Assembly (NCBI GenBank): GCA_019326865.1
Contig: GCA_019326865.1_4101.1
From: a phage
Reading direction: 5' to 3' (one strand)
Length of the DNA: 64,000 nt
Below the pieces are notes generated by a model. The model did not search any database and was not told where the DNA came from. It saw only the letters and a list, made by a program, of their open reading frames with translations. The translations under genes and the position numbers were made by a program. This document shows, piece by piece, positions 25,931 through 45,448 of this stretch (its first letter is position 1; every line of letters begins with the position of its first letter).

Positions 25931-26619
25931 TCAAAATTTTTATTTTGTTTTTCCAATAGTTCCCCTACCGCGTGAGGATATTTTTCCCCGCAGTATCTGG
26001 AGTTAGATTTTTCTGAATCTGGAATCATTATCTAATAAACTGGGGGCAATGTCAACCGCCTGGATGAATATTTTTAAAAATAATCTAGTACTGAATTTTG
26101 GGCGTAACTATGCACCCGGTGGGCTTGAGTCTTTCTCGACTTGATGAAACTATTATACAGTACTAGAAAAATAAAGCAATACCCTAAACGCAAAAAATTT
26201 AATTAATTTGCTTGCTATCCTGGGCCGTACTATGGTACTATTAGTTCAGTACTGAGAAAGTGCTTTAACCTGCTAGGGTGCGGGAGTGTATCCTTTTTAA
26301 ATTATATGAATTTTGGACGCAATCCCGCACCCTGTGGGTTAGTGCCTTGTGTCCGGCTTATGTAGTAATTATACGCTTTTTCAGTACTGAGTCAATAGCT
26401 AAAAACAAAAATAATTGAAAATAATTTAACGCGTTTAAACGGCCCGTAAAGCCCTGGAGTGATTGGAATGGTACAAATGTATAGCTTAGGTGTATTAATG
26501 CGTTAGAATGCGTCTGAGGCCGTTTTACGGGGTGTAGTGGTGATTTGGTTGATTCAGTACTGAATGATAGTATTCCTATATAGAAAGAAAACTATTTTAA
26601 AAGTACATGTAGAAAGTAC

Positions 26620-26647
26620 TTGCAAAGTATTGGGAAAGGTGTAGAAT
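26620..26647 (+). promoter_or_regulatory. early-type promoter TTGCAA -16- TAGAAT, followed by leader hairpin gcgggaacacttcccgc
   Basis: Hexamers and spacing read from sequence. Confidence 0.55.
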
Positions 26648-26702
26648 GTTTTACATCGAGAGCGGGAACACTTCCCGCTGCACATAAAGAGAGATTAAAA
26701 CG

Positions 26703-27065
26703 ATGGCTACTCAAATCAATAAAATTATTGCTAACCTGGTTAACTTCCGCGACGAGATGAAAGGTCTTCCGGCTGAAACGGTAAAAATTCACATTTCAGC
26801 TTATCGGGAACTTATTGCAATGTTACCGCTTAAGCGTGAACAATACGCCGCTACCGTGATGCTTGATGCGATGATCCATGAGATGATCGCCAGTGATTTA
26901 ACGATGGTTTATCAGTACATGGGCGAAAATTTCGCGGTGTCTGGTAAGCCAGTACCAGGGATGGCAACTACTGAGGAATTGCACGGTTTAAATTTAAAAC
27001 AAGATGCATGGGATAATATGCCTCGTTTCCTGGTATGGGCTGACAGTGGCAAAATTTACAAATAA
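26703..27065 (+). CDS. hypothetical protein (120 aa)
   Basis: ORF after promoter + leader hairpin; starts ATGGCT. Confidence 0.65.
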   Translation: MATQINKIIANLVNFRDEMKGLPAETVKIHISAYRELIAMLPLKREQYAATVMLDAMIHEMIASDLTMVYQYMGENFAVSGKPVPGMATTEELHGLNLKQDAWDNMPRFLVWADSGKIYK

Positions 27066-27079
27066 GTTTAATAAAGTAC

Positions 27080-27107
27080 TTGCATACTAAGTTAAAACAA
27101 GTATAAT
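27080..27107 (+). promoter_or_regulatory. early-type promoter TTGCAT -16- TATAAT
   Basis: Followed by two leader stem-loops (27127-27146, 27151-27165). Confidence 0.6.
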
Positions 27108-27150
27108 ACTTTCTATCAGGTGCAACGGGAAGTTTTTAAACTTCCCTATA

Positions 27151-27165
27151 GGGGAATAGTTCCCC
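27151..27165 (+). other. 5' leader palindrome ggggaatagttcccc
   Basis: Perfect 6-bp stems; same motif class upstream of >25 genes in 26.6-44.5 kb. Confidence 0.6.
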
Positions 27166-27186
27166 ACTATATAAGAGGATTAAAAA

Positions 27187-27426
27187 ATGGCTAAATCAAA
27201 AATGTTCTTAGGTCACAAAAACAAAACTCATTGGAATGTAAGCCTTTGGATTAATAACGATGAGTCATTGTACCGGTTGGCCCAGGACTTTATTGCCGCC
27301 AACACTAATCGCAATGATGCGGCCCGTCATATGATGTTATTTTTAGAACAGACTGGACAAGATAAAACACCGGACGGATTCAAATATAGCACTACTGCGA
27401 TCCGTGCGGCGATGGTTGGAATGTAA
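27187..27426 (+). CDS. hypothetical protein (79 aa), paralog of 29223 gene
   Basis: Shares HKNKTHWNVSLWINNDESLYR and GFKYSTTAIRAAMVGM with 29223..29462. Confidence 0.7.
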   Translation: MAKSKMFLGHKNKTHWNVSLWINNDESLYRLAQDFIAANTNRNDAARHMMLFLEQTGQDKTPDGFKYSTTAIRAAMVGM

Positions 27427-27511
27427 TAGAATTTATTTAAAGTACTATCGCAAAAAATGATAGTACTTTATAATAGTGTTTTATTCATACACCAACGATA
27501 AGGGCAACAGC

Positions 27512-27778
27512 ATGAATATTAAGTATTTTGCGACGCGTGAACAAGCTCGGAAGGCGGCGAAAGTGGAAGGTGCAACGTTTAAAGATATGGGCATACAATC
27601 GGAACGTGGTAAACGTTGGGCCATTGTAAAGCGTAGTACAGCCAGATCATTACAGTACTGGTTATCAGCTTTAAAAAGTCCTGATAGTGTATCGCGTCGA
27701 GTGGTAGAAATAAAGCTCGACCGTAAGGGGAATCGTGTTACCGTGTACCGTACTAAAAAGATTGCAGTACTTGAATAA
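27512..27778 (+). CDS. hypothetical protein, paralog of 39936 gene
   Basis: Shares KYFATREQAR..FKDMG..RKGNRVTVY; start at MNIKYF. Confidence 0.65.
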   Translation: MNIKYFATREQARKAAKVEGATFKDMGIQSERGKRWAIVKRSTARSLQYWLSALKSPDSVSRRVVEIKLDRKGNRVTVYRTKKIAVLE

Positions 27779-27784
27779 AAGTAC

Positions 27785-27812
27785 TTGCAAAGTAAGTTAA
27801 AAGGCGTATAAT
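27785..27812 (+). promoter_or_regulatory. early-type promoter TTGCAA -16- TATAAT + leader hairpin ggggaatacttcccc
   Basis: Read from sequence. Confidence 0.6.
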
Positions 27813-27862
27813 ACTTTCTATCAGGTGGGGAATACTTCCCCACTACATAAGAGGATTTAAAA

Positions 27863-28093
27863 ATGGCTACCATGTACATGACCGAAGTTAAAACCGTAAA
27901 AGATACTACCACAAATAAAACTACTTACTTACAGCGGATCTGTGGTGTATGGCAACGTATTAGTAAAGTAAAGTACTTTAAATTAACATCATATGCCAAT
28001 CGTTCGGATTCATTCAGTACTGAAATAAAAGGTAATAAAGTACACCAATACGGCACTTATTATTATTATAGCCTGGACGCGATTGCAGTATAA
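27863..28093 (+). CDS. hypothetical protein
   Basis: ORF after promoter cassette. Confidence 0.6.
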   Translation: MATMYMTEVKTVKDTTTNKTTYLQRICGVWQRISKVKYFKLTSYANRSDSFSTEIKGNKVHQYGTYYYYSLDAIAV

Positions 28094-28519
28094 GCAGTTT
28101 ACAAATCTTTACAATTGCCGGTATTGACTTAAAATGTCAGTACTGGCATAATGTATCTATTGAAACGAACAATTTGGCCCACGGGGTGCGGGAGTGTATC
28201 TATAGAAAAAGTAGTTTAGTACAGTTACAATTGTGCACCCGGTGGGTTAGCTGTTGTCATGGGGTATATTATGCCAGTACTTGATAATGCTGTCAATACC
28301 TTTTTACTATTCAGTACTGAAAACTATTTGATAAAAAGTACTTGCAAACTATGTTTAAAGGCGTATAATGTTTTACATCAGGACGGGGAACGAAATAAGT
28401 AACTTCCCGTTAAGTAGCCCAGGAGTAAGGCATACGAAAAACTCCCCTGATAAAATAGTTTGACAATTGTTTTTAAAAGCGTATAATACTTACATCAACT
28501 ACTTAATGAGGGTTACAAA

Positions 28520-29131
28520 ATGAAAACTATCACTACTACTACTTATGTTATGGATTTTTCTGAATTAAACGCAGAACAAAAAACGTCAGCTATCGAACTG
28601 GTTCGGGAACGTGAAAAAAACTTAAACGACGATTATTTTTCTGAAAGTGAAATTGAATACTATAAAGAAACAGTACTACCGGAATATGGCATTAATGAAG
28701 CTGAAATACAATTCAGTGGTTTTTGGTCGCAGGGTGACGGTGCATCAATTAGTACTGACCACGTTGACGCAGTGAAGTTTTTACGTAAGGTAAGAGCATT
28801 AACTAAGTATCGCTCAATCCGTCACCTGCTGAATGAAGATGATTTGGCGATGAGTGTAAAGCGTTCTCACTCCCGCTACTCACATGAGAACACTGTAAGC
28901 GGGTACATTGAATCGGCTTACACTGATTTAACCGCAAAACAAGAAACGTTAGTTAATGGGCTTGAGGAACTGCTCACTGATACTATTCGTGAATTGTCAC
29001 GCAAGTTATACCGTGATTTAGAGAATGCATATGAGGATCAATTCACTACTGAAAACATCGTATCACTGATTGAGGGTAACGAATATCAATTCAATGTTAT
29101 TGATGGCGTAGTAGAATCAATTGCATATTAA
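28520..29131 (+). CDS. hypothetical protein (203 aa)
   Basis: ORF after promoter TTGACA..TATAAT. Confidence 0.65.
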   Translation: MKTITTTTYVMDFSELNAEQKTSAIELVREREKNLNDDYFSESEIEYYKETVLPEYGINEAEIQFSGFWSQGDGASISTDHVDAVKFLRKVRALTKYRSIRHLLNEDDLAMSVKRSHSRYSHENTVSGYIESAYTDLTAKQETLVNGLEELLTDTIRELSRKLYRDLENAYEDQFTTENIVSLIEGNEYQFNVIDGVVESIAY

Positions 29132-29138
29132 AAAGTAC

Positions 29139-29166
29139 TTGCAAACTAAGTTTAAAAGCGTATAAT
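29139..29166 (+). promoter_or_regulatory. early-type promoter TTGCAA -16- TATAAT + leader hairpin gggggaatggttcccc
   Basis: Read from sequence. Confidence 0.6.
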
Positions 29167-29222
29167 ACTTTATATCGAGGCGGGGGAATGGTTCCCCTGC
29201 TCAAACAAACGAGGATTTAAAA

Positions 29223-29462
29223 ATGGCTAGTACTAAAACTTACAACGGACACAAAAACAAAACTCATTGGAATGTTTCATTGTGGATTAATAACGATGAA
29301 TCATTATACCGGATTGCTCAAAATTGCATCGCTCAAAGTAAAACGAAAGATATTGCAGCGGAATTTATGTACCGCAGATTAAAAGCCAACGGTACTACTA
29401 CAACGCCGGACGGATTCAAGTATAGCACTACGGCGATCCGTGCTGCAATGGTTGGAATGTAA
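29223..29462 (+). CDS. hypothetical protein, paralog of 27187 gene
   Basis: High identity to 27187..27426. Confidence 0.7.
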   Translation: MASTKTYNGHKNKTHWNVSLWINNDESLYRIAQNCIAQSKTKDIAAEFMYRRLKANGTTTTPDGFKYSTTAIRAAMVGM

Positions 29463-29518
29463 CATTCAGTACTGAATCAATGGCGGGTGTGGTTCCCGCC
29501 TTTACTGAGGATTATCTA

Positions 29519-29800
29519 ATGAGTAAAGTAATTAACTATACAGTACTAAGCAAGTCATTATCTATTAGCCAGTGCACCGATGGTTTTTGGCTGTACGATG
29601 AAACGCGTGGCATGAATTTAGCTATGCAGGAGAAAACTGCTGATGCGGCATATCTTAAAGCACTGGAATACTACCAGAAGCGTTTAACGGAAGTAGAAAA
29701 CGATTATAATAACCTTAAAGCGAAAGTGGATAATTTCGTTGGTCAATTCGTTGACGATGACGAGGGGCACTACTGCGACCGTTGTGGATCTTACAGTTAA
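29519..29800 (+). CDS. hypothetical protein
   Basis: Start at MSKVINY with SD gagga. Confidence 0.55.
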   Translation: MSKVINYTVLSKSLSISQCTDGFWLYDETRGMNLAMQEKTADAAYLKALEYYQKRLTEVENDYNNLKAKVDNFVGQFVDDDEGHYCDRCGSYS

Positions 29801-29817
29801 GTACTAAGGATTATATA

Positions 29818-30021
29818 ATGAGTGATTTAATTGAACGTATCAAAGAGCTTGAAGAAAAAGAATTGCAGTTGATCGGTTTACAGAATAAAATCTATCATGA
29901 TTTGGGGAGTTTTATCAATGCGTGGGATAATGGCGATCCTGATGCGTTACCTGCTAACCGCCAGGCAATGATCAATGATGTGCGTGGTGTCTTTGAGTAT
30001 GTTTTAAAGCAATTAAATTAA
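29818..30021 (+). CDS. hypothetical protein
   Basis: Start at MSDLIERIK. Confidence 0.55.
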   Translation: MSDLIERIKELEEKELQLIGLQNKIYHDLGSFINAWDNGDPDALPANRQAMINDVRGVFEYVLKQLN

Positions 30022-30031
30022 AAAAAAGTAC

Positions 30032-30059
30032 TTGCAATTAGTTTTTAGTACTGTATAAT
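30032..30059 (+). promoter_or_regulatory. early-type promoter TTGCAA -16- TATAAT + leader hairpin ggggagaaatggttctccc
   Basis: Read from sequence. Confidence 0.6.
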
Positions 30060-30109
30060 GTTTTACATAGAGGGGAGAAATGGTTCTCCCTGGTAATGAG
30101 GAAAATACA

Positions 30110-30331
30110 ATGGCTAATATCACTACTCTTTCTCAACTGGAAGCACTGGTTAAATCTATGCGGGAACATGCCGACAAAATCGGCGTAAAAGATCCAGCCG
30201 TTTGCTTCTGCGACGAAATGAATGATGATACATTGGTAATAGCAGAAGTTCAGGACGTTTCTAACTATTCATCGCGTTACACTGGCGGCGTAGCAAATAA
30301 AGGTGACTTCTGTTTATACCTTACCAAATAA
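30110..30331 (+). CDS. hypothetical protein
   Basis: Start at MANITTL; track start 30080 lies inside leader hairpin. Confidence 0.6.
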   Translation: MANITTLSQLEALVKSMREHADKIGVKDPAVCFCDEMNDDTLVIAEVQDVSNYSSRYTGGVANKGDFCLYLTK

Positions 30332-30574
30332 CAACGCGGGGAGATAATAACTCCCCGTTACTTTTTCAGTACTGAATAATTTAATAGACGGATCTATGCA
30401 CCCAGTGGGTTAGTGACTGTTTCGTCTTTATGTAGTAATTATGCCAGTACTGGATGCACTTGTCAACAACTATTTTTCAAATACTTTTTATTAAAATACT
30501 TGCAATTAGTTTTTAAACGCGTATAATGTTTTGCATAGGGGGAGCGGTTCCCCTGGTAACTAAGGAATAAGAAA

Positions 30575-30811
30575 ATGGTCGAACAAATCAAATCAACGTC
30601 TTCGAATGTAACGGGAACGGTAGCACACTTTACTTGTGATGAATCGCGGGGCGTTCCCTATTGTGCTGTACATGTAAACACTGAGGGTAACTACTGGTTT
30701 ACGGTTTACGGATCATATTCATTTGGACGGCCAGGGCATCAAAAAATTCTGGATAAAGTACAACCAACGGGTAAAAATATCACTGCCGAAATGTTTTATA
30801 AAAACAAATAA
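30575..30811 (+). CDS. hypothetical protein
   Basis: Promoter cassette upstream. Confidence 0.6.
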   Translation: MVEQIKSTSSNVTGTVAHFTCDESRGVPYCAVHVNTEGNYWFTVYGSYSFGRPGHQKILDKVQPTGKNITAEMFYKNK

Positions 30812-30905
30812 AAGTACTTGATAATAGTTTGACTATGTATTACAGTACTGTATAATAGATACATAAGGGGCGAATAGTTTGCCCCTAGTACAAAGGGGAA
30901 ACATT

Positions 30906-31136
30906 ATGCCAGGCCGAATAGTTTTACTTAACGCTGGAAGTACTACACAACTCCTTAACGCCGTGTATTATGATATTGAAACGAGCGTCAATCTTATCAG
31001 TACTGTAGTATTGTTGGACACTGGAAAGGTCGCAAATGATAAAGCGATTGCAGGTATACTAACGGATCTTAAACCAGGTTGCAGTACTCCAATAACTTTA
31101 AATGATAAAGTGTTTAATATTTTACTAACTGATTAA
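30906..31136 (+). CDS. hypothetical protein
   Basis: Start after leader hairpin ggggcgaatagtttgcccc. Confidence 0.55.
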   Translation: MPGRIVLLNAGSTTQLLNAVYYDIETSVNLISTVVLLDTGKVANDKAIAGILTDLKPGCSTPITLNDKVFNILLTD

Positions 31137-31143
31137 GTACATA

Positions 31144-31165
31144 GCCCACCTGGTGGGCTTTTTTG
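31144..31165 (+). terminator. terminator gcccac-ctg-gtgggc + T-run
   Basis: GC stem then tttttt. Confidence 0.6.
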
Positions 31166-31360
31166 TTTTTGTAGTACTGCATACTTTGAAAATAGTTTTA
31201 AAAAAGTAGTTGACATTACCGCAAAAAGGCGTAGAATGTATTACATCAAGACGGGGAGCACTAAGTAGACCGCCAGTAAGTCGAACGAAAAACTGGACAC
31301 GTCGAGAAAACTTTGATACACTAACTAACATAAACTAAACTTTAATTGAGGATTTATAAA

Positions 31361-31843
31361 ATGGCTAATGTAAAATCATTTCTGAAAGCACTGATTTCTA
31401 ACGATACTGCTATTGCTGCTGAATTGCTGGCGGATCTGGATAGCGATACCATGAAAGCGGTACGCAACAATTTTAACATTGCGTACAGTGAAGCTAAAGA
31501 ACTGCAAGCCAAAAAGATAGCAGAACTGGAAGAACAGAAAAAAGCCCGTGAAGAAGAATTACAAGCAACAATTGAAAGTATTCAGGCGGCGGTTGCAGGG
31601 TTGGATCTGGAAGTAGTTATTGAAATGGCACATAAAGCCCTGGCAGTTAAGTACGGTGAAGATAAGCCAGTATCTAAACCTAAAAAATGGATTCAGGAAC
31701 GCGTAACGGTTGTTCTTGATAATGGCGAGGAACATTTAATTCCCGTGCGTGGTAACTGCATTGCGGTAGTTCTGGATGCTATCAAAGAAAGCGGATTGAC
31801 TCGCGAGGAATGGATCGAAGCTCACCGCAAGATTGAAGCATAA
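31361..31843 (+). CDS. hypothetical protein (160 aa), charged/helical
   Basis: Start MANVKSF. Confidence 0.65.
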   Translation: MANVKSFLKALISNDTAIAAELLADLDSDTMKAVRNNFNIAYSEAKELQAKKIAELEEQKKAREEELQATIESIQAAVAGLDLEVVIEMAHKALAVKYGEDKPVSKPKKWIQERVTVVLDNGEEHLIPVRGNCIAVVLDAIKESGLTREEWIEAHRKIEA

Positions 31844-31864
31844 CAATTAAAGTACTGAATCACT

Positions 31865-31892
31865 AGCCCACTTCTTATAGTGGGCTTTTTTG
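31865..31892 (+). terminator. terminator agcccac..gtgggct + T-run
   Basis: Stem-loop then tttttt. Confidence 0.6.
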
Positions 31893-32107
31893 TGTTTATC
31901 GTTTACCAGTCCACTAGCACCGCCTAGAATCGATTCTAACGCATTAAACTGGTCGCCCTAGCTGGTGGCATTAATGCCGTTAGAACGCGATTGAGGACGT
32001 TTAAAGTATTTTTGCAAAAAGTAATAAAAAGTACTTGCACGATTAAGAGATTAGAGTATAATTAATTACATCAAGACAAGACACCTTAACTAACTGAGGA
32101 TATAAAG

Positions 32108-32260
32108 ATGAATACTTATGAACTGGATTGTTTTACTTTACAAGTAATGTCAGTATGCAGTAAAAAAGATTGGTCATCAAAGGAATTTAAAGCAGTTATT
32201 GCGTGTGCAAAACACGGCAAGACTATCAATGAAACGGCATCAATCATTGATAAACTTTAA
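32108..32260 (+). CDS. hypothetical small protein (50 aa)
   Basis: Short ORF after promoter, SD gagga. Confidence 0.4.
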   Translation: MNTYELDCFTLQVMSVCSKKDWSSKEFKAVIACAKHGKTINETASIIDKL

Positions 32261-38562: not shown

Positions 38563-38577
38563 AAATAATTAAAAAAA

Positions 38578-39256: not shown

Positions 39257-39439
39257 ATGGCTAAGTGCACTATCTGTAAGAAAGAAATAGTATTAGTTCC
39301 AAGTGCCCGTGAGCGTGCAGCTCGGTTCGGTGGCAAAGCGTCAGACTATACAAAAATGTTTACTACTCATGCAAATTGCCAGGTAGCAAAACGTTCACAA
39401 GAAAGCGTAGAATTAATGCGTAAACTTTCCAAAAAATAA
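39257..39439 (+). CDS. hypothetical small Cys-containing protein
   Basis: Promoter block duplicated at 39440-39525. Confidence 0.55.
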   Translation: MAKCTICKKEIVLVPSARERAARFGGKASDYTKMFTTHANCQVAKRSQESVELMRKLSKK

Positions 39440-39525
39440 GTATTGACAAAGTATCTTAGTACTGTATAATAGATTACATCAAGTGAGGGGAAACGGTTCC
39501 CCTCCTAACAAAGAGAGAAATAAAA

Positions 39526-39849
39526 ATGACTATGATCCTTGCCCAGAAAGTAGAACTGAAAATTGTAACTTCCTTTGACATTAAAGTTAATCGCTGGACT
39601 GATCGGAACGGTAATACTTACCACTCTTGCTACGTGTCTGCATTGATTGGTGATCGTTGGGAAGACTTGGGACACGAAACCTTTACATACGGTTACGGTA
39701 CGCAAGGCGAATACACTGGTTTGGAGATCATTAAAGAAACCGTTATAGGTTTCAACCCGAAAGAAAAAGTTATTCACCGCATCGAAAAAGAGATTAATAA
39801 AGAAATAACAGTTCGCTACTACGATGTAAAACGTAAGAAAGACATGTAA
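39526..39849 (+). CDS. hypothetical protein, paralog of 33165 gene
   Basis: Shared C-terminal VKRKKD motif. Confidence 0.6.
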   Translation: MTMILAQKVELKIVTSFDIKVNRWTDRNGNTYHSCYVSALIGDRWEDLGHETFTYGYGTQGEYTGLEIIKETVIGFNPKEKVIHRIEKEINKEITVRYYDVKRKKDM

Positions 39850-39935
39850 TAGAATCCATTTAAAGTACTATTTGACATTACACAGATAGTACTTTATAAT
39901 AGACTCTAACTTGTAGTATTAACTTAACTAATAGG

Positions 39936-40340
39936 ATGTATACCATGATTACTAAATTCTACGCTACCCGTGAAGCTGCCCGTATTGTTGCACGCGAGGA
40001 AGGAGCGGCATTTAAAGACATGGGCAAAGATGCACCGAAAGGCCAACGCTGGAGCGTACAGTTCAAAGAAATCTCTGATATTGTGAATTCACCTGAACCA
40101 GTACTGACAGCAGCAGAACAGAAGAAAGCTGATGAACTGGCGGCAATTCTTAACGCTCAAGATGAATTCGTCGAGGGTGCTGATATCCAGGTTGTAGTAA
40201 ATTCGAATGCATGGACTCACGCGGATCATCTGGCTAACCTGAAGCGTCCAAGCGTATTGATTCGCAACCATAAAGAGATCCGACACGACCGCAAGGGCAA
40301 CCGTGTTACTGTATACAGTAAACGCCGCCAGGTTATCTAA
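39936..40340 (+). CDS. hypothetical protein, paralog of 27512 gene
   Basis: Shared KFYATREAAR..FKDMG..RKGNRVTVY; alternative start 39945. Confidence 0.6.
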   Translation: MYTMITKFYATREAARIVAREEGAAFKDMGKDAPKGQRWSVQFKEISDIVNSPEPVLTAAEQKKADELAAILNAQDEFVEGADIQVVVNSNAWTHADHLANLKRPSVLIRNHKEIRHDRKGNRVTVYSKRRQVI

Positions 40341-40362
40341 TACCTAGCAGTACTAACAACAC

Positions 40363-40387
40363 GGCGGGATCTGTTCCCGCCTTTTTT
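40363..40387 (+). terminator. terminator ggcggga-tctg-ttcccgcc + T-run
   Basis: GC stem then tttttt. Confidence 0.65.
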
Positions 40388-40402
40388 ACAGGATAAACTA
40401 AA

Positions 40403-40657
40403 ATGATTAAGGTAAAACTATCTAAAGATAATATCTTGCGGGTACACTATAAAGCCCCTCAGAGAATCATCACAAAGGCCGTACAGCTTGCGAATGAGTT
40501 TATTAATGGTAATCTATTACCTAGGAAGTTAAGCAACGGAAAACTGCGTGTAATCGATGTAGACACTAACAACAGAATAGTAATAGAGAATACCGGAAAG
40601 ATAAACCTATATGAACACCAACAATATAATAAGAAAATAAAACTAATTAGTCGTTGA
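40403..40657 (+). CDS. hypothetical basic protein
   Basis: ORF. Confidence 0.55.
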   Translation: MIKVKLSKDNILRVHYKAPQRIITKAVQLANEFINGNLLPRKLSNGKLRVIDVDTNNRIVIENTGKINLYEHQQYNKKIKLISR

Positions 40658-40711
40658 CAGTACTCAAATGTTTTAGTACTATATATCTATACCAACACGG
40701 AGAGAAACAAA

Positions 40712-40930
40712 ATGAAATTATCTAAAATCGAAAAGAAAACTATTGACGTAGCTATCCAACATGGTTACACCTTTCGTAATGATTTACATTTTACCAATTT
40801 TCAACAAGGGTATCGTACTATTAAAAAACTAATTGACAAAGGTTTATTAGTTAAAGTAGACAACGGCAACGGCGTTGAATATCAACCAACACAGGACGCA
40901 TTTAATTTTAAGAAATATAATATTATCTAA
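40712..40930 (+). CDS. hypothetical protein
   Basis: ORF with SD ggagag. Confidence 0.55.
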   Translation: MKLSKIEKKTIDVAIQHGYTFRNDLHFTNFQQGYRTIKKLIDKGLLVKVDNGNGVEYQPTQDAFNFKKYNII

Positions 40931-40987
40931 TTGACAGTACTCAAATGTTTTAGTACTATATCTATACCAACACAGGAAAAAAACAAA

Positions 40988-41572
40988 ATGCGTAATTATA
41001 CTAAATTCATCCGTACACTGTCAGAAATGGAAACCAACAAAGAGATCTTGACAGCTTGTCGGTTAGCTGGTCTGGAGATCATCGGTGCGGGGTCTTCCCG
41101 TATTGTATTCGCTTTAAATGATCGGTTAGTGATTAAGGTCGCGAATTGTGATGCGGGTGTAGAACAAAATGAAACAGAATGTAAAGTATGGAATTTTTTA
41201 GATTATGACCGACCTCAGTTGAAACAGTTCTTTGCTAAAGTACATATGCATTTAAGCGATCCTGATAATATGTTTATTGTTATGGATCGGTTGAGTACTG
41301 CAAGTAAAGGCAGTGTAAAGCACGTTAACGCGTGCAACGAATTAAAGTACAATATTAAACGTAATGCAATCGAACGCCAGCACCGCTTTGCTGATGCACT
41401 ACAACACGTCGATGATACATTATCAACACTAACGATCAGAGATATCAGAAAACAGAATATCGGACAGGATCGAAATGGACTGATTAAAGTACTTGATTAT
41501 GGTTTAACCCGCAATATCTGGAATCAGTACTATAAAAAGCGTGATGTAAAAGCCGTAACTATAACACGATAA
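40988..41572 (+). CDS. hypothetical protein, kinase-fold-like (IIGAGSSRIVF, VIKV, DIRKQN, LDYG)
   Basis: Gly-rich loop, lysine motif and catalytic/DFG-like motifs in canonical order; start at MRNYTKF. Confidence 0.5.
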   Translation: MRNYTKFIRTLSEMETNKEILTACRLAGLEIIGAGSSRIVFALNDRLVIKVANCDAGVEQNETECKVWNFLDYDRPQLKQFFAKVHMHLSDPDNMFIVMDRLSTASKGSVKHVNACNELKYNIKRNAIERQHRFADALQHVDDTLSTLTIRDIRKQNIGQDRNGLIKVLDYGLTRNIWNQYYKKRDVKAVTITR

Positions 41573-41586
41573 AAAAGATTAAAAAA

Positions 41587-41675
41587 GGGATTGACTCCGG
41601 TCAGTCCCTTTGCTATTATATATTCATTGAGAGATAGCTCACTAGCCCACAGGGTGCGGGAGTGTATCTATTATA
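41587..41675 (+). repeat. ~90-bp repeat element copy 3
   Basis: Matches 34851 copy. Confidence 0.75.
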
Positions 41676-41787
41676 TAAGTATTGAGTACTGAAAACTATT
41701 TTTAAAAAGTACTTGCATTGTACTTAGATTCAAGTATAATGTTTTATATCGAGAGGGGGAACGTCCCTGATAATAAGGAATAAAATC

Positions 41788-42009
41788 ATGACTACAATGA
41801 CTTGCATTTACGCTTCCAATCTTCTGAATGATGCTGTTTTTAATGTTGATTCAGAATATCAATGTTATCGGGATGAAAATAAAAAAGTTTTTGTAGTTGA
41901 TAATAATGGTTTCCATATTGAATTACAATCCGGCTTCACTGGTGTTGATGGTAAATCAGTATGGGGCGTACAGGATGATAAAGGCACATATCATTTTAAA
42001 CGTAATTAA
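41788..42009 (+). CDS. hypothetical protein
   Basis: ORF after promoter. Confidence 0.55.
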   Translation: MTTMTCIYASNLLNDAVFNVDSEYQCYRDENKKVFVVDNNGFHIELQSGFTGVDGKSVWGVQDDKGTYHFKRN

Positions 42010-42124
42010 GTATTGACAAAGTATCTTAGTACTGTATAATAGTTTACATCAAGGGCAACGGGAAGTTTTAAAAACTTCCCTATAGGGAGAACAGTTCTCC
42101 CCGATACTAAAAGGAAACAAAAAT

Positions 42125-42397
42125 ATGTCTAGCTACTCCGCTACTATGATCATTAAAGATATGAACGGTAATCCTACTGCTGCTGGTGGATCATTTGGAA
42201 ACATTAACTTAGATGGTCGGTTAACCATGCAATCAGCCATCAATGCAGCGAAAGAAGTTTTTAAGAATGAATGCACTGTAAGTAAGCTGGATTATATGGG
42301 ATTCGCTATCGAGAAAACTAATCGTTTTGTGAACTACAAAAATCCACTGATGATTGATACTAACCTGAAAGCTAACGAAGTGGAATACTTATTATGA
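42125..42397 (+). CDS. hypothetical protein
   Basis: ORF after promoter with two leader stem-loops. Confidence 0.6.
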   Translation: MSSYSATMIIKDMNGNPTAAGGSFGNINLDGRLTMQSAINAAKEVFKNECTVSKLDYMGFAIEKTNRFVNYKNPLMIDTNLKANEVEYLL

Positions 42398-42585
42398 CAG
42401 TTGAAGAAGTTAAAAAAGTACTGGCAGTTCTACGCTATCATAACCATTGCAAGGTGAAGAATGATTCTGATTATCTTGATTCATCCCTTGAGGAAGACAC
42501 ATTAAACGCAATAAGCTATATGCAAACATTATTAAAACGTATGACCGAAAAGAATAGACCGGACTATATCGGAAATAAAATTTAA
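42394..42585 (+). CDS. hypothetical protein
   Basis: ATGA-coupled. Confidence 0.5.
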   Translation: MTVEEVKKVLAVLRYHNHCKVKNDSDYLDSSLEEDTLNAISYMQTLLKRMTEKNRPDYIGNKI

Positions 42586-42671
42586 AAAGTACTTGCATTG
42601 TAGTTAGATTAACGTATAATGTTTTATATCGAGAGGGGAAATGGTTTCCCCTCAAGTCCAGGAGATACACA

Positions 42672-42935
42672 ATGAACACTATCGAAATCACTATCAATGC
42701 TCACGTATACGACAACGTAGTACTGCAAACTACTATGACCGCTAATGATACCAGTACTTTGCGGAATACTGTTATTAGTGCTGTATGTGCCGCTATCGGT
42801 GATGTCGCCCTGGAAAATGCAAAACACGTAAACGATGGTTTCACTATGTGCAAGCGTGATAACGCAAAACATATCATCGTAGAAGGTTACGGCGGTGTAG
42901 AATATAATGTTTATATGAAAAAAGTACTTGCATAA
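42672..42935 (+). CDS. hypothetical protein
   Basis: ORF after promoter + hairpin. Confidence 0.6.
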   Translation: MNTIEITINAHVYDNVVLQTTMTANDTSTLRNTVISAVCAAIGDVALENAKHVNDGFTMCKRDNAKHIIVEGYGGVEYNVYMKKVLA

Positions 42936-43002
42936 TAACTAAAACAAAGTATAATGTTTTGCATAGGGGGAGATATCCTCCCCCACTAAAAGGAGTAATA
43001 AA

Positions 43003-43227
43003 ATGGCTAACTTTGATGAACTGATGCGGGAAGTAGCTAACCTGGCAGAAGAGAAGAAATCATTCGATTCTATCTATAACACCTCTTACCGTGATTCAGT
43101 ACTGGCATGTAACCAGGATCAAAAAGATGAACTAATCGCCACCTATTATGAAGCATGGAAGTACTACCGACAATGGGAGAAAGAAGAAAGTGAGTCTACC
43201 ATTGACGGCCTCAATAATCTAATCTAA
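43003..43227 (+). CDS. hypothetical protein
   Basis: ORF after promoter + hairpin gggggagatatcctccccc. Confidence 0.6.
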   Translation: MANFDELMREVANLAEEKKSFDSIYNTSYRDSVLACNQDQKDELIATYYEAWKYYRQWEKEESESTIDGLNNLI

Positions 43228-43302
43228 AGTTTTATTTCAGTACTATTGACATAGATTGATAGTACTGATATGATAACTTTACTATCTACAAGGGGAAACA
43301 TC

Positions 43303-43560
43303 ATGGAACAATTCACACAATATCGGGTAAATCCTCAAGCTATGGCATACGTAGAAGACCATAAAACGTTACCAGTACAAACACCAATTAAAGGCCATAT
43401 CTATCGTGCAATGTCATGGAATCCGGCCCAGTATGGCTATAACACCGTAGCCGTGGGCATGTACTGCGGCAATGGTGAATGGTTTGATCCTAACAATCCG
43501 ATTGCACTTGATAGTACTGAAAAAATGAAATGGGCCGACTACATCGAAGATATTTCATAA
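43303..43560 (+). CDS. hypothetical protein
   Basis: Start at MEQFTQY. Confidence 0.55.
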   Translation: MEQFTQYRVNPQAMAYVEDHKTLPVQTPIKGHIYRAMSWNPAQYGYNTVAVGMYCGNGEWFDPNNPIALDSTEKMKWADYIEDIS

Positions 43561-43650
43561 AAATTATTTGACAGTACTAACCAGTAATGTATAATGTTTT
43601 ACATAGAGCGGGGGAATAGTTCTCCCGCCAATAGTTTGGAGTAAAACATT

Positions 43651-43851
43651 ATGTCTATCGCTATCGCCCTGGTCGAAGTACTGAAAGAAGCTAAAGCCAA
43701 CCTTATCGATGTACAGATTAAGGAATTGCAAAATGGCTTAATCGGCTGTACTTGTACCGCTGGTGGCCCGTCAGACTATCGGGAATTCGAATCACTTGAA
43801 TCGATGGTCCGTTATCTTACAATCATCGTAGAAGATTGGAGAATCATCTAA
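43651..43851 (+). CDS. hypothetical protein
   Basis: ORF after promoter + hairpin. Confidence 0.55.
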   Translation: MSIAIALVEVLKEAKANLIDVQIKELQNGLIGCTCTAGGPSDYREFESLESMVRYLTIIVEDWRII

Positions 43852-43869
43852 CAAAAAAAAAGAATAAAA

Positions 43870-43955
43870 AGGGATTGACTCCGGTCAGTCCCTTTGCTAT
43901 TATATACGCATAGACAAAAACTAGCCCACAGGGTGCATAGGTGTATCTTAAATAT
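43870..43955 (+). repeat. ~90-bp repeat element copy 4 (diverged 3' half)
   Basis: Matches 41587 copy at 5' end. Confidence 0.65.
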
Positions 43956-44097
43956 ATAGTTAATAACGGTGAGTAACTATCTGCTGGTGGGGTGAAAACT
44001 ATTAATAAAAAGTATTGACAAAGTATATCAGTACTGCAATAATGTATCTCGTAGGGCGGCAATGGTGCGACGGTCCACAAAGTTAGGAGATTCACAA

Positions 44098-44430
44098 ATG
44101 AGTACTTCAATCGCTATCGTTAAAGCTTTCATCCGTACCAACGTTTCATCTGTATTCATTGACGGACTGGATCGGGAAGTAGAATACTCAATCATTATCG
44201 CACAAACTGCAAACGGTGCTCGGTACATCCTTAATAATAGTGAAGCAAATCACTACTACTTCACTAAAGCCACTGGCTTTAAACGCATCGATGCTGATGT
44301 AGTATACGCTAAGATGAATAAGCTGGTAGACAAGATTAACGCGAAAGGTACTATCGATTTACAGTACTGGACCGAAACCGATCCAGAATATGGATCTCAC
44401 CGCTACCTGAATCCAGGTATTAAAATGTAA
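44098..44430 (+). CDS. hypothetical protein
   Basis: Start at MSTSIAIV with SD aggag. Confidence 0.6.
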   Translation: MSTSIAIVKAFIRTNVSSVFIDGLDREVEYSIIIAQTANGARYILNNSEANHYYFTKATGFKRIDADVVYAKMNKLVDKINAKGTIDLQYWTETDPEYGSHRYLNPGIKM

Positions 44431-44519
44431 AAAGTACTTGCATAGTACTTAGATTTAAGTATAATGTTTTTCATAGAGAGGGGGAAATGGTTCTCCCTCC
44501 TAAATTAAGGAGTTTTATC

Positions 44520-44921
44520 ATGACCTTCTCAATCACTTCCTTCGCTGACGTTTTAGTACTGGCTCGGACTTTCGGCAAAGCTGGCCTTGAGCACGCTGTA
44601 AGTAATGGTTATATGCACCCGGAATATTGCCGCATTATCGGTAGCTGTAAACGTTGGGCCGTGTCCCGTAATATTGAGATTGAAAACTTCAATGATGGTA
44701 ACAACGAATATACAGTTGATGCAGTATTCGAATCCGTTGATCTCGGCGGTATCTATAACACTAACCTGAATGATGTGCGTATTGTTCGCACGGGGTTCGG
44801 TGCTTATGATGTATCTATCCGTGAAGCGATGGACAAGGGATACATTAGCAAGGATCAGTTAGCTTACATTATGCAGCAGACTAAAGAGCGTAATGAAGCA
44901 CGCACTATCTTAGGTCTGTAA
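44520..44921 (+). CDS. hypothetical protein
   Basis: Start at MTFSITSF with SD aaggag. Confidence 0.6.
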   Translation: MTFSITSFADVLVLARTFGKAGLEHAVSNGYMHPEYCRIIGSCKRWAVSRNIEIENFNDGNNEYTVDAVFESVDLGGIYNTNLNDVRIVRTGFGAYDVSIREAMDKGYISKDQLAYIMQQTKERNEARTILGL

Positions 44922-44989
44922 GCATTACACATCACTAAACATCATAGGCCGCTCTCTAGCGGCCTTAACTATATCAGGAGTACATACAC

Positions 44990-45199
44990 ATGATCTATAC
45001 AGTATACAGTGTTCTAGGCACTATTGCAGGTGTACACGATAATGTCGATGATACTATGATTACAGTACTGCAACAGGTTCCACTAAAGCCTAAGACAGTT
45101 AAGAAGATGACCGCACGACTAACCAGGGCGACGGCTGGCGTGGAAGTATGGCAGGACTACGGGGATACACAGGTAATCGTAAGCGTAACGAGGGATTAA
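44990..45199 (+). CDS. hypothetical protein
   Basis: ORF with SD ggag. Confidence 0.5.
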   Translation: MIYTVYSVLGTIAGVHDNVDDTMITVLQQVPLKPKTVKKMTARLTRATAGVEVWQDYGDTQVIVSVTRD

Positions 45200-45448
45200 T
45201 ACGTAAAATGATTTAGTACTGATTCAGAAAAAAGTCAAGGCGTTTTTAAAATTATGCGTTAAAAAAATGCATAGGTAATCCCTTGACTTTTTTGAAATAA
45301 AAGGGATTGGACTATGGCAAAATGCGTAGGGGGGCTAAAGTGCGGGTAACTTAGCGGCTTCGATAAAGGGGTATTACGAATAAAATGTTATTGACTTTTT
45401 ATATAAATCGTATAAAATATGATTGATAATAATTTTAAGGGAGTCCCT

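What the first reader, a model, noticed from the sequence alone, without database searches (positions are those of the whole stretch)
26600..45200. About 50 small genes each in a promoter + leader stem-loop cassette (PeSL-like)
Most genes here are preceded by AAAAGTAC-TTGCAA/TTGACA -16/17- TATAAT, then a palindromic leader GGGGA(A/G)-N3-5-TTCCCC (sometimes two stem-loops), then an SD and very often ATGGCT. Whole promoter blocks are duplicated verbatim (32790-32869, 33083-33164, 35745-35823; 39171-39256 and 39440-39525) in front of different genes, and several genes are paralog pairs. This matches the promoter-early-stem-loop cassettes reported in T4-type hyperplastic regions as I recall them. 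By eye, not computed, this block looks more GC-rich with different codon usage than its flanks.
Basis: partly seen in the sequence, partly recalled or inferred. Interest (0 to 1): 0.6.

Follow-up and report, generated by a model that had tools for sequence, protein, structure and literature searches.

The report
Early-gene promoter cassettes in phage terminal repeat
This block is the roughly 20-kb terminal repeat of a giant E. coli phage, holding 52 tiny genes, most with their own strong host-type promoter and about half with a short RNA hairpin at the start of the message; the repeated promoter units also appear to be the places where related phages swap these genes.

Summary
The window comes from an Asteriusvirus, a PBECO4/121Q/G17-like jumbo coliphage. 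The flagged block lies inside its collapsed direct terminal repeat (DTR), window 24993-45354.

I curated 52 small + strand genes (median 77 aa).
- 39 have their own sigma-70-type promoter.
- 25 have a GC-rich hairpin that starts 12-14 nt after the -10 hexamer, so it lies in the transcribed leader.
- 13 start with ATGGCT.

The strict promoter pattern gives 29 hits against 0.6 expected. GGG..CCC hairpins give 25 against about 1.

Stems keep pairing through compensatory changes. Mismatches are G.U, not A.C (13 v 2), which points to a + sense RNA structure. No leader hairpin is followed by a T-run, so they are not intrinsic terminators.

DTR genes are richer in GC and avoid AGA/AGG/ATA codons.

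Against five relatives, 24 of 32 indel breakpoints lie between genes, with up to 78 nt of duplicated promoter at the junctions. Near-identical cassettes precede unrelated genes. Homologous genes occur, in another order, in a Klebsiella jumbo phage and in a Vequintavirinae phage.

Verdict: a PeSL-like shuffling system, but a new variant. It is not in a T4-like phage, it sits in a DTR, and the hairpin is in the 5' UTR.

The parts
24993..45354 (.). Direct terminal repeat (DTR) of the phage, present once here because the assembly collapsed the two copies
   Evidence: Window 24993 aligns to position 1 of vB_Ec-M-J (annotated DTR 1-21525) and of fEgEco12. In JP4 window 45354 is joined directly to window 24993 (L003 5907/5908). 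The G17 record ends at window 45350.
24993..26597 (.). ORF-free head of the DTR, with promoters on both strands and imperfect tandem repeats (25829-25914)
26703..45199 (+). Array of 52 small genes (29-203 aa, median 77), all on the + strand. Recognisable domains are DksA/TraR zinc finger (g29, 36552-36809), GNAT acetyltransferase (g30, 36874-37230), a kinase-like protein (g42, 40988-41572) and ParE-like (gene not identified); the rest are of unknown function
26620..26702 (+). Cassette g1: TTGCAA-16-TAGAAT; leader hairpin 26661-26679
27080..27186 (+). Cassette g2: TTGCAT-16-TATAAT; two hairpins, 27127-27146 and 27151-27165
27447..27511 (+). Cassette g3: weak -35 (ATCGCA), TATAAT at 27469-27474; no hairpin
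   Evidence: read from the sequence
27785..27862 (+). Cassette g4: TTGCAA-16-TATAAT; hairpin 27824-27844
28342..28519 (+). Cassette g5: TTGCAA-16-TATAAT, about 80-nt structured leader, then a second promoter TTGACA-16-TATAAT (28460-28487)
29139..29222 (+). Cassette g6: TTGCAA-16-TATAAT; hairpin 29180-29200 with one G.U pair
29482..29518 (+). Half cassette g7: hairpin 29482-29500 plus SD, no promoter here. The G17 homologue has the full cassette
30032..30109 (+). Cassette g9: TTGCAA-16-TATAAT; hairpin 30072-30091
30500..30574 (+). Cassette g10: TTGCAA-16-TATAAT; hairpin 30538-30554
30829..30905 (+). Cassette g11: TTGACT-16-TATAAT; hairpin 30866-30886
31210..31360 (+). Cassette g12: TTGACA-16-TAGAAT; 123-nt leader
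32035..32107 (+). Cassette g13: TTGCAC-16-TATAAT; no hairpin
32269..32331 (+). Cassette g14: TTGACA-17-GATAAT with TG before the -10; no hairpin
32568..32645 (+). Cassette g15: TTGCAA-16-TATAAT; hairpin 32608-32628. The cassette and gene are shared with Vequintavirinae phage UPEC06
32810..32869 (+). Cassette g16: TTGACA-17-CATAAT (TG-extended); no hairpin; copy 1 of the verbatim block
33102..33164 (+). Cassette g17: same block, copy 2
33515..33589 (+). Cassette g18: weak promoter TTTACT-17-TATAGT
34389..34466 (+). Cassette g21: TTGCAA-16-TATAAT; hairpin 34429-34448 with one G.U pair
34987..35065 (+). Cassette g24: TTGCAA-16-TATAAT; hairpin 35028-35046
35422..35531 (+). Cassette g25: TTGACA-16-TATAAT; two hairpins, 35469-35489 and 35494-35510
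35764..35823 (+). Cassette g26: verbatim block, copy 3 (79/79 identical to the g16 copy)
36031..36104 (+). Cassette g27: TTGACA-16-TATAAT; no hairpin
36817..36873 (+). Cassette g30: TTGACA-16-TATAAT; no hairpin
37245..37319 (+). Cassette g31: TTGACA-16-TATAAT; hairpin 37284-37302
37866..37943 (+). Cassette g33: TTGACA-16-TATAAT; hairpin 37906-37925
38164..38242 (+). Cassette g34: TTGTGT-16-TATAAT; hairpin 38205-38221
38716..38894 (+). Cassette g36: TTGCAT-16-TATAAT, long leader, second promoter at 38834-38862; 91% identical to the g5 cassette over 169 nt
39174..39256 (+). Cassette g37: TTGACA-16-TATAAT; hairpin 39216-39234
39443..39525 (+). Cassette g38: 83/86 identical to the g37 cassette; hairpin 39485-39504
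39872..39944 (+). Cassette g39: TTGACA-17-TATAAT; no hairpin
40654..40711 (+). Cassette g41: TTGACA-17-TACTAT; no hairpin
40931..40987 (+). Cassette g42: TTGACA-17-TACTAT; no hairpin
41713..41787 (+). Cassette g43: TTGCAT-16-TATAAT; short, degraded hairpin 41756-41768
42013..42124 (+). Cassette g44: TTGACA-16-TATAAT; two hairpins, 42060-42080 and 42085-42101
42593..42671 (+). Cassette g46: TTGCAT-16-TATAAT; hairpin 42633-42653 (-14.2 kcal/mol; SD and AUG unpaired)
42928..43002 (+). Cassette g47: TTGCAT-16-TATAAT; hairpin 42966-42984
43246..43302 (+). Cassette g48: TTGACA-17-TATGAT; no hairpin
43568..43650 (+). Cassette g49: TTGACA-16-TATAAT; hairpin 43608-43628 with one G.U pair
44015..44097 (+). 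Cassette g50: TTGACA-17-AATAAT; no GGG..CCC hairpin
44438..44519 (+). Cassette g51: TTGCAT-16-TATAAT; hairpin 44478-44499 with one G.U pair
30336..30358 (+). Intrinsic-terminator-like hairpin followed by a T-run, after g9
31143..31159 (+). Terminator-like hairpin followed by a T-run, after g11
31865..31886 (+). Terminator-like hairpin followed by a T-run, after g12
40363..40381 (+). Terminator-like hairpin followed by a T-run, after g39
34847..34935 (+). Composite terminator/promoter: the hairpin contains the -35 TTGACT, then 17 nt, then TATTAT. It is followed by the conserved CCCACAGGGTGC unit. This is the classic PeSL layout
38573..38663 (+). Composite terminator/promoter plus CCCACAGGGTGC unit, copy 2
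41584..41672 (+). Composite terminator/promoter plus CCCACAGGGTGC unit, copy 3
43868..43945 (+). Composite terminator/promoter plus CCCACAGGGTGC unit, copy 4

Best explanation
The block is the roughly 20.4-kb direct terminal repeat of an Asteriusvirus jumbo phage. It works as the immediate-early, host-takeover gene region.

Because a copy sits at each end of the packaged DNA, these 52 small genes are on whichever end enters the cell first, and they are present in double dose.

Thirty-nine of the genes are autonomous units read by unmodified host RNA polymerase. The promoters are near-consensus sigma-70 promoters with an A-rich/AGTAC upstream part and often a TG-extended -10. Intrinsic terminators occur only every 1-3 kb, so transcripts from successive promoters are nested.

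In about two thirds of the units the mRNA begins, about 5 nt from its 5' end, with a stable GC-rich hairpin of about -13 kcal/mol. An unstructured A-rich Shine-Dalgarno region and the AUG follow.

I infer that the hairpin is a 5'-UTR element. It would protect the short early mRNAs from 5'-end-dependent decay and/or insulate the ribosome-binding site from upstream read-through RNA. I do not think it is a terminator.

Codon usage is adapted to the host tRNA pool, as expected for genes translated before phage functions appear.

The promoter parts of the cassettes, about 50 nt and highly similar to one another, act as portable homology. Recombination between them deletes, inserts, duplicates and reorders 'hairpin-SD-gene' modules within and between phages.

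Shown here: the anatomy, the enrichment, the RNA-sense pairing pattern, the DTR identity, the codon bias, the breakpoint positions and the inter-phage sharing. Inferred: promoter activity and start sites, early timing, the stabiliser role, and the recombination mechanism.
For: DTR identity.
- The ends coincide with the record ends or DTR junctions of four relatives.
- DTRs of about 20-21 kb were established for fEgEco12 (PhageTerm plus restriction digests), Sharanji (PhageTerm) and G17 (sequence coverage).

Promoters.
- 29 strict hits against 0.59 expected, 26 of them on the + strand in the DTR.
- Eleven sites match 12/12.

Hairpins.
- 25 against about 1 expected, at a fixed distance from the start codon.
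- They start 12-14 nt after the -10 hexamer in 39 of 57 unique hairpins.
- In the 57 unique hairpins, from the window and seven related loci, stem pairs are 412 Watson-Crick, 13 G.U, 2 A.C and 4 other. Compensatory variants occur, such as GTGGGG..CCCCAC, GCGGGG..CCCCGC and GAGGGG..CCCCTC, and G-C/A-T exchange at pair 4.
- 0 of 100 unique leaders have 5 or more T after the hairpin. SD and AUG are unpaired in 84 of 100. Mean energy is -13.2 kcal/mol (folds).

Codon bias.

Early expression by analogy: in the related jumbo phage PA5oct many DTR genes are highly transcribed early (PMC7318152).

Shuffling.
- 24 of 32 breakpoint clusters are intergenic against 30% expected (p = 1.6e-7). Six of the other eight lie within 37 nt of a gene end or 10 nt of a start.
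- HSP overlaps of 48, 48, 57 and 78 nt show that the same cassette flanks both sides of inserted genes.
- Upstream 90 nt are 83-86/90 identical in front of genes with 15-27% protein identity. The true paralogues g2/g6 share only 56/90.
- JP4 carries a chimeric cassette.
- 8 DTR genes have homologues, in another order, in a 6-kb stretch of Vequintavirinae phage UPEC06. 12 have homologues in the DTR of Klebsiella phage fENko-Kae01.
Against: - No transcript data exist for this phage group in the searched library. Start sites, timing and promoter strength are all predicted.
- If the start site is 7 nt after the -10 hexamer, the unpaired 5' tail is 4-7 nt in most leaders. That is at or beyond the length at which ompA-type hairpins are known to protect.
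- About one third of the promoters have no hairpin, so it is not essential for expression.
- The G-run/C-run of the stem is more conserved than pairing alone requires, which could mean a sequence-specific ligand.
- Breakpoints at gene boundaries are also what selection for intact genes would leave. The duplicated-homology junctions are the stronger argument.
- The G.U cases are partly inherited, so the 13 v 2 count overstates the number of independent events.
Confidence: 0.7

Rival explanations
1. These are true PeSLs in the original sense. The stem-loop would be a transcription terminator or attenuator that isolates each gene from upstream transcription, and the promoter restarts transcription.
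For: - PeSL stem-loops are often GGGG...CCCC, and one tested example terminated as well as rrnB T1 (PMC2839356).
- The hairpins lie between genes.
- Four other elements in the block, at 34847, 38573, 41584 and 43868, are a terminator hairpin fused to a promoter.
Against: - The 25 leader hairpins lie downstream of their own promoter's predicted start site.
- 0 of 100 unique leaders have a T-run after the stem, and none was picked up by the terminator scan.
- Canonical terminators with T-runs exist separately in the same block.
Confidence: 0.12
2. The hairpin is an operator for a phage-encoded or host RNA-binding protein. This could be a translational repressor, an endoribonuclease or an anti-decay factor that switches the whole early gene set off, or marks it, at a later stage. 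T4 RegA and RegB act on early mRNAs in this way.
For: - The GGGGA(A/G)...(T/C)TCCCC core is conserved across E. coli and Klebsiella jumbo phages and a Vequintavirinae phage.
- Its position relative to the SD is fixed, 18-27 nt before the AUG.
- A shared mark on about 25 mRNAs would allow co-ordinated control.
Against: - Loops vary in length and sequence, with 22 different loops among 57 hairpins.
- Stems co-vary, which fits a structural requirement rather than a sequence-specific one.
- No RNA-binding domain was recognised among the 52 DTR proteins.
- One third of the early promoters lack the hairpin.
Confidence: 0.18
3. The hairpin acts at the DNA level, as a cruciform or single-strand hairpin that is the recombination site itself (like integron attC) or a binding site for a DNA-binding protein.
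For: - The stem core is palindromic, so it reads the same on both strands.
- The PeSL authors speculated about a protein that targets GGGG..CCCC.
- Some breakpoints abut the hairpin, at 27122, 29196-29209, 39482 and 42055.
Against: - Mismatches are G.T on the + strand (13) and hardly ever A.C (2). The - strand hairpin would therefore be disrupted, and a cruciform would be disfavoured.
- Shared homology at junctions lies in the promoter segment upstream of the hairpin.
- No integrase or recombinase domain was found in the block.
Confidence: 0.05
4. The repeats are only the residue of recent tandem gene duplications, and the cassettes play no role in shuffling.
For: Three paralogue pairs exist, and g16/g26 show faint similarity.
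Against: - Cassette identity is uncoupled from gene identity: 83-86/90 in front of unrelated genes, against 56/90 for the 67%-identical paralogues g2/g6.
- The same cassette types are found in phages of other genera and families.
Confidence: 0.05

Closest known systems
PeSL (promoter-early stem-loop) cassettes of T4-like phages (RB49/phi1, PST/T4, nt-1/KVP40; Arbiol 2010 PMC2839356, Comeau 2014 PMC4122927)
   Same: - Repeated units of about 80-100 bp made of an AT-rich upstream part, a sigma-70-like promoter, a G-run/C-run stem-loop, an SD and an ATG.
- They sit directly upstream of ORFan genes.
- They are concentrated in the most variable part of the genome.
- Insertions, deletions and replacements between close relatives have their junctions in the units.
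   Different: - The host genome is an Asteriusvirus, not a T4-like phage.
- The region is the direct terminal repeat.
- The main stem-loop lies after the predicted start site, in the 5' UTR, and lacks a T-run, so it is probably not a terminator.
- Homology at the junctions is in the promoter segment.
- Mini-circles were not tested.
- Four separate terminator-in-promoter composites in the same block do match the classic layout.
Terminal-repeat early regions of large virulent phages: T5 pre-early genes in its 10-kb DTR (own knowledge); PA5oct 39-kb DTR with 105 genes, many highly transcribed early (PMC7318152); CBB 22.5-kb DTR with 51 ORFs and RpoD-like promoters (PMC5259590)
   Same: A long DTR packed with small genes of unknown function, transcribed by host polymerase from sigma-70-type promoters.
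   Different: - Published descriptions of the Rak2-like/Asteriusvirus DTRs that I could read mention its length and, for CBB, three RpoD-like promoters.
- None mentions the per-gene cassette array, the leader hairpin, the codon bias or cassette-mediated shuffling.
- Two-step DNA entry, as in T5, is unknown here.
5'-terminal stabilising stem-loops of bacterial and phage mRNAs (ompA 5' UTR; T7 phi10 leader GGGAGACCACAACGGTTTCCC) (own knowledge)
   Same: A GC-rich hairpin of 6-9 bp close to the 5' end, followed by an unstructured, strong ribosome-binding site.
   Different: - The start site is only predicted, and the unpaired 5' tail may be 4-7 nt.
- The element is repeated about 25 times in one 20-kb block, and it co-varies.
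Early promoters of Vequintavirinae (rV5-like) phages (33 sigma-70 promoters predicted in rV5, 11 with extended -10; PMC3606486)
   Same: The same promoter-hairpin-SD layout occurs in UPEC06, and at least 8 DTR genes have homologues there.
   Different: It is a different phage family with a genome of about 140 kb. The region there is not a 20-kb DTR. AGTACT is not enriched in the fragment examined.

Membership tests
PeSL cassettes (T4-like phages) | Strong sigma-70-like early promoter with an AT-rich upstream region | tested here: met
   29 strict matches against 0.59 expected. Eleven sites match 12/12. The upstream part is A-rich (AAAAAGTAC).
PeSL cassettes (T4-like phages) | Stem-loop placed upstream of, overlapping, or between the promoter hexamers, or just before the start site | tested here: not met
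   The leader hairpins start 12-14 nt after the -10 hexamer in 39 of 57 unique cases, so they are transcribed. Only the four composites at 34847, 38573, 41584 and 43868 have the stem over the -35.
PeSL cassettes (T4-like phages) | Stem-loop acts as a transcription terminator or attenuator | tested here: not met
   This is a sequence proxy only. 0 of 100 leaders have 5 or more T in the 8 nt after the stem, and none is listed by the terminator scan. Activity itself was not testable.
PeSL cassettes (T4-like phages) | The unit ends with the SD and start codon of a small ORFan gene | tested here: met
PeSL cassettes (T4-like phages) | Concentrated in hyperplastic (most variable) regions | tested here: met
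   26 of the 29 strict promoter hits and 24 of the 25 hairpins are in the DTR. Relatives cover only 25-68% of the block at about 90% identity.
PeSL cassettes (T4-like phages) | Indel and replacement junctions between close relatives lie in the units | tested here: met
   24 of 32 breakpoint clusters are intergenic (p = 1.6e-7). Duplicated cassette homology of 48-78 nt is found at junctions.
PeSL cassettes (T4-like phages) | Formation of mini-circles by recombination between neighbouring units | not testable with these tools
   This needs inverse PCR or long reads from infected cells.
PeSL cassettes (T4-like phages) | Resident in a T4-like myovirus genome | tested here: not met
   The closest records are Asteriusvirus.
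Direct terminal repeat of Asteriusvirus / Rak2-like jumbo phages | Homologous to a defined DTR, with the same ends | tested here: met
   the fEgEco12 DTR was confirmed by PhageTerm and restriction digests (PMC13070987).
Direct terminal repeat of Asteriusvirus / Rak2-like jumbo phages | Physical genome ends and two-fold read depth in this phage | not testable with these tools
   No reads or virion DNA are available.
Direct terminal repeat of Asteriusvirus / Rak2-like jumbo phages | About 20-22 kb holding about 50 small ORFs on one strand | tested here: met
   20,362 bp and 52 genes.
5'-UTR stabilising stem-loop (ompA / T7 phi10 type) | Hairpin within a few nucleotides of the mRNA 5' end | tested here: inconclusive
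   With a start site assumed 7 nt after the -10 hexamer, the unpaired tail is 0-7 nt and most often 4-6. The start site is not mapped.
5'-UTR stabilising stem-loop (ompA / T7 phi10 type) | The structure is selected at the RNA level and leaves the SD and AUG free | tested here: met
   13 G.U against 2 A.C mismatches, plus compensatory pairs. SD and AUG are unpaired in 84 of 100 leaders.
5'-UTR stabilising stem-loop (ompA / T7 phi10 type) | Lengthens mRNA half-life | not testable with these tools
   This needs half-life measurements.
Integron-type gene cassettes | Integrase gene and attC/attI sites | tested here: not met
   No integrase or recombinase domain was found among the 52 proteins. Junction homology lies in promoters.

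The most novel reading that the evidence does not exclude
The promoter(+hairpin) units may form a recombinase-free, integron-like exchange system for early, host-takeover genes. It would be shared across unrelated myovirus families that infect enterobacteria: the Asteriusvirus DTR, fENko-like Klebsiella jumbo phages and Vequintavirinae. The conserved early promoter would be the universal crossover site, and the 5'-UTR hairpin a portable expression module.

In addition, the ten-fold excess of AGTACT across the Rak2-like clade, placed at the -35 and just before the -10 of these promoters, may be a DNA code read by an unknown phage protein or modification enzyme that controls the early-to-middle switch.
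Probability: 0.3. Interest if true: 0.7.

Novelty: new variant of a known kind. Interest (0 to 1): 0.5.

Why it matters
Jumbo phages of this clade carry about 50 unknown genes in their terminal repeat, and these are probably the first genes expressed.

The work here has three uses.
- It gives a concrete map for testing host-takeover and anti-defence functions: each gene is a self-contained unit of strong sigma-70 promoter, 5' hairpin and strong ribosome-binding site, with host-adapted codons.
- It explains why this region is the most variable part of otherwise collinear genomes.
- It extends the PeSL idea of regulatory cassettes as recombination linkers beyond T4-like phages and to exchange between phage families.

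The cassettes are also compact, naturally insulated expression parts that could be reused in E. coli engineering.

Tried and rejected
- A simple SD-score gene caller missed genes with GAGAGA-type SDs and placed two starts inside hairpin loops. I replaced it with manual curation checked by translation.
- RNAalifold on a MAFFT alignment of 100 leaders predicted no structure, because the arms were out of register. I replaced it with a loop-anchored pair count.
- Rfam gathering-threshold search of the whole window gave no hit. ARAGORN found no tRNA.
- Folding the long leaders and the CCCACNGGGTGC units gave weak z-scores, from -0.1 to -2.4, so I make no ncRNA claim.
- Literature searches found no transcriptome or promoter description for Asteriusvirus, no AGTACT report, and no use of 'PeSL' outside T4-like phages.
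- I considered and rejected three readings: the hairpins as intrinsic terminators (no T-runs), integron cassettes (no integrase), and chance clustering (shuffle controls).

Full report
**What the window is.** Megablast of the block and of its flanks finds only E. coli jumbo myoviruses of the genus Asteriusvirus (PBECO4, 121Q, G17, phAPEC6, fEgEco12, vB_Ec-M-J, JP4 and others). Identity is about 89-96%, and no record is identical.

In vB_Ec-M-J the homologous stretch is annotated 'Direct Terminal Repeats', 1-21525, with 53 small genes. Four relatives fix the ends in the window:
- Window 24993 aligns with base 1 of vB_Ec-M-J and of fEgEco12.
- In JP4, whose record holds two adjacent copies, window 45354 is joined directly to window 24993.
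- The G17 record ends at window 45350.

The flagged block is therefore the body of a 20,362-bp DTR, collapsed to one copy in this assembly.

DTRs of about 20-21 kb are reported for several relatives. fEgEco12 has 20,993 bp by PhageTerm and restriction digests (PMC13070987). Sharanji has 20,668 bp (PMC11895373). G17 has about 20 kb (PMC6563267). The more distant CBB has 22.5 kb with 51 ORFs (PMC5259590).

**Checking the observation.** I curated 52 + strand genes between 26703 and 45199, median 77 aa.

Promoters:
- 36 genes have a promoter matching at least 10 of 12 positions, and three more have a 9/12 promoter.
- The strict pattern TTGMMW-N16-TATAAT occurs 29 times in 64 kb against 0.59 expected. 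26 of these are on the + strand inside the DTR.
- The consensus scan lists eleven 12/12 sites.

Hairpins:
- Perfect GGG..CCC hairpins number 25 against about 1 in shuffles.
- 24 are in the DTR, and 22 lie at a fixed distance from a start codon.
- With imperfect stems counted, 25 genes have the hairpin and three have two.

Other claims:
- ATGGCT starts 13 of 52 genes, and none of 53 ORFs in the right flank.
- The 'verbatim' blocks are confirmed at 79/79, 77 matches over 80-82 nt, and 83/86. Repeat families of 13-16 cassette copies are found.
- There are three paralogue pairs.
- The by-eye claim about composition holds. GC is 37.5% against 34.0% and 32.2%. DTR genes use AGA/AGG for 9% of Arg against 64% in the right flank, and ATA for 8% of Ile against 32%. 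They use more CTG, GGC, ATC and CCG. This is a shift towards host-preferred codons.

**Anatomy of a unit.** A typical unit reads AAAAAGTAC-TTGCAA (or TTGACA) - 16/17 nt - TATAAT, often preceded by AGTACTG, which gives a TG-extended -10. Next come G/A-TTTACAT-C/A-RAG, then the hairpin, 8-10 nt, an SD (AAGAGGA, AAGGAA or AGAGAGA), 7-9 nt and ATG.

The hairpin begins 12-14 nt after the -10 hexamer in 39 of 57 unique hairpins. With a start site about 7 nt after the -10, it lies at roughly +5 to +8 of the mRNA.

Folding shows one stable hairpin, mean -13.2 kcal/mol. SD and AUG are unpaired in 84 of 100 unique leaders.

No leader hairpin is followed by a T-run (0 of 100), and none is listed by the terminator scan. 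That scan instead finds separate T-run terminators at 30336, 31143, 31865 and 40363, and four hairpins at 34847, 38573, 41584 and 43868. The block is thus cut into stretches of 1-3 kb, each containing several tandem promoters.

**Is the hairpin an RNA structure?** I collected 100 unique leaders from the window, five Asteriusvirus DTRs, the Klebsiella phage fENko-Kae01 and the Vequintavirinae phage UPEC06. They hold 57 unique hairpins. Their 431 stem pairs are 412 Watson-Crick, 13 G.U, 2 A.C and 4 other.
- Outer pairs vary in a compensatory way: GTGGGG..CCCCAC, GCGGGG..CCCCGC, GAGGGG..CCCCTC.
- Pair 4 alternates G-C and A-T, with G.T intermediates.
- G.T on the + strand would be A.C on the other strand. 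The asymmetry therefore favours a structure in the + sense RNA over a DNA cruciform.
- The cases are partly inherited, so the count overstates the number of independent events.
- Loops are variable, with 22 different loops.

**Shuffling.** I chained blastn alignments of the window DTR against five relatives. This gives 32 breakpoint clusters for indels or replacements of at least 60 bp.
- 24 clusters are intergenic, against 30% expected (binomial p = 1.6e-7).
- Six of the other eight lie within 37 nt of a gene end or 10 nt of a start.
- At several junctions the alignments overlap in the window by 48, 48, 57 or 78 nt. One cassette in the window then matches both cassettes that flank an extra gene in the relative. 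Examples are window 27075-27122 against vB_Ec-M-J 2132-2179 and 2449-2496, and window 42008-42055.
- The shared stretch is the promoter, and homology often ends where the hairpin begins.
- Cassette identity is uncoupled from gene identity. The upstream 90 nt are 83-86/90 identical for g16/g17/g26 and g37/g38, whose proteins are 15-27% identical. The real paralogues g2/g6 (67%) share only 56/90.
- JP4 carries a chimeric leader, the g49-type hairpin joined to the g46-type SD.

**Spread beyond the genus.** A 97-nt cassette finds 7-24 places per Asteriusvirus record. It also hits fENko-Kae01 (inside its annotated DTR), Salmonella and Klebsiella jumbo phages, and Vequintavirinae-sized phages of about 140 kb.
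- The fENko-Kae01 DTR shows the same layout with GGGGGAAACATCTTCCCCC hairpins and holds homologues of 12 of the window's DTR genes, in another order.
- A 6-kb stretch of UPEC06 holds homologues of g2/g6, g14, g15, g24, g25, g26 and g44 (42-89% amino-acid identity), in another order. For g15 the cassette is homologous too.
- The promoter AGTACTTGCAW-N16-TATAAT recurs in IMG/VR contigs of the sizes of 121Q, GAP32, CBB, RaK2 and fHe-Yen9-04. In the last four it mostly lacks the hairpin. The promoter type is therefore older than the hairpin.

**Interpretation.** The DTR is the immediate-early region. This is inferred, not shown for this genus. It rests on sigma-70 promoters, host-adapted codons, domains typical of host-takeover genes (DksA/TraR, GNAT, kinase-like, ParE-like), and early transcription of DTR genes in the related PA5oct.

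The hairpin is most simply a 5'-UTR stabiliser or insulator. An operator for an unknown RNA-binding protein cannot be excluded. A terminator role, as in PeSLs, is unlikely.

**Comparison with PeSLs.** Compared with PeSLs, the system works alike as a set of recombination linkers that carry their own promoter. It fails three membership features: stem-loop position, terminator signature and host phage family. I found no description of these cassettes in papers on this phage group. I therefore rate it a new variant of a known kind, of moderate interest.

Noticed in passing
whole window; densest 24993-45354; nearly absent 45600-50000: AGTACT is ten-fold over-represented, 227 sites against about 21 expected. 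CAGTAC, GTACTG and AGTACT are the three most enriched hexamers. It sits at the -35 (AAAAAGTACTTGCAA) and just before the -10 (TAGTACTGTATAAT) of the cassettes, but also inside genes in all three frames. The same density, 4-7 per kb, is seen in sampled stretches of fENko-Kae01 and of IMG/VR contigs the sizes of GAP32, CBB, RaK2 and fHe-Yen9-04. It is not seen in the Vequintavirinae fragment. Six other 6-bp palindromes have no sites at all. The function is unknown.
   Followed up: partly
45419-52909 (+): Directly after the DTR lies a tandem array of 27 paralogous genes of about 65-85 aa. Their stop and start codons overlap, and I saw no promoter cassette between them. ORFs in this flank use many AGA/AGG/ATA codons. 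This architecture is the opposite of the DTR.
   Followed up: partly
+ strand 28120-28210, 34840-34935, 38568-38663, 41577-41672, 43861-43945; - strand 26185-26100, 26400-26310, 28300-28225, 30470-30390: There are nine small units, each a promoter followed about 25-30 nt later by an invariant CCCACNGGGTGC. They lie on both strands, and two pairs are convergent. Four of the + strand copies start with a terminator hairpin that contains the -35 hexamer. The units are also present in the fENko-Kae01 DTR. There is no Rfam match and only a weak fold z-score.
   Followed up: partly
28305-28473 and 38679-38847; related 31244-31330; L006 2541-2625: A 169-nt repeat (91% identical) consists of a promoter, a leader of about 80 nt closed by AUCAGG...CCUGAU, and a second promoter. 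A related leader precedes g12 and also occurs in Vequintavirinae phage UPEC06. It could be a conserved leader or a small RNA.
   Followed up: partly
4079-4155: The same cassette occurs outside the DTR: TTGACA-16-TATAAT preceded by AGTACTG, hairpin GGGATGAACTTCTCATCCC, an SD and ATG.
   Followed up: no
24993-26597: The first 1.6 kb of the DTR has no credible ORF. It holds a 12/12 promoter at 25387 with no gene after it, and imperfect 24-nt and 16-nt tandem repeats at 25829-25914 (GGCTAAACGG / TAGATGG). These could be replication or packaging signals.
   Followed up: no
45229-45293: A long inverted repeat (AAAAAGTCAAGG ... CCCTTGACTTTTTT) lies about 60-120 nt before the right DTR boundary. It could be a terminator or a packaging-related structure.
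   Followed up: no
L006 (UPEC06 126999-133081) and L007 (fENko-Kae01 1-15940): Eight DTR genes have homologues in a 6-kb stretch of a Vequintavirinae phage. Twelve have homologues in the DTR of a Klebsiella jumbo phage that has only about 29% ANI to an Asteriusvirus (fEgEco12). Both sets are in a shuffled order.
   Followed up: partly
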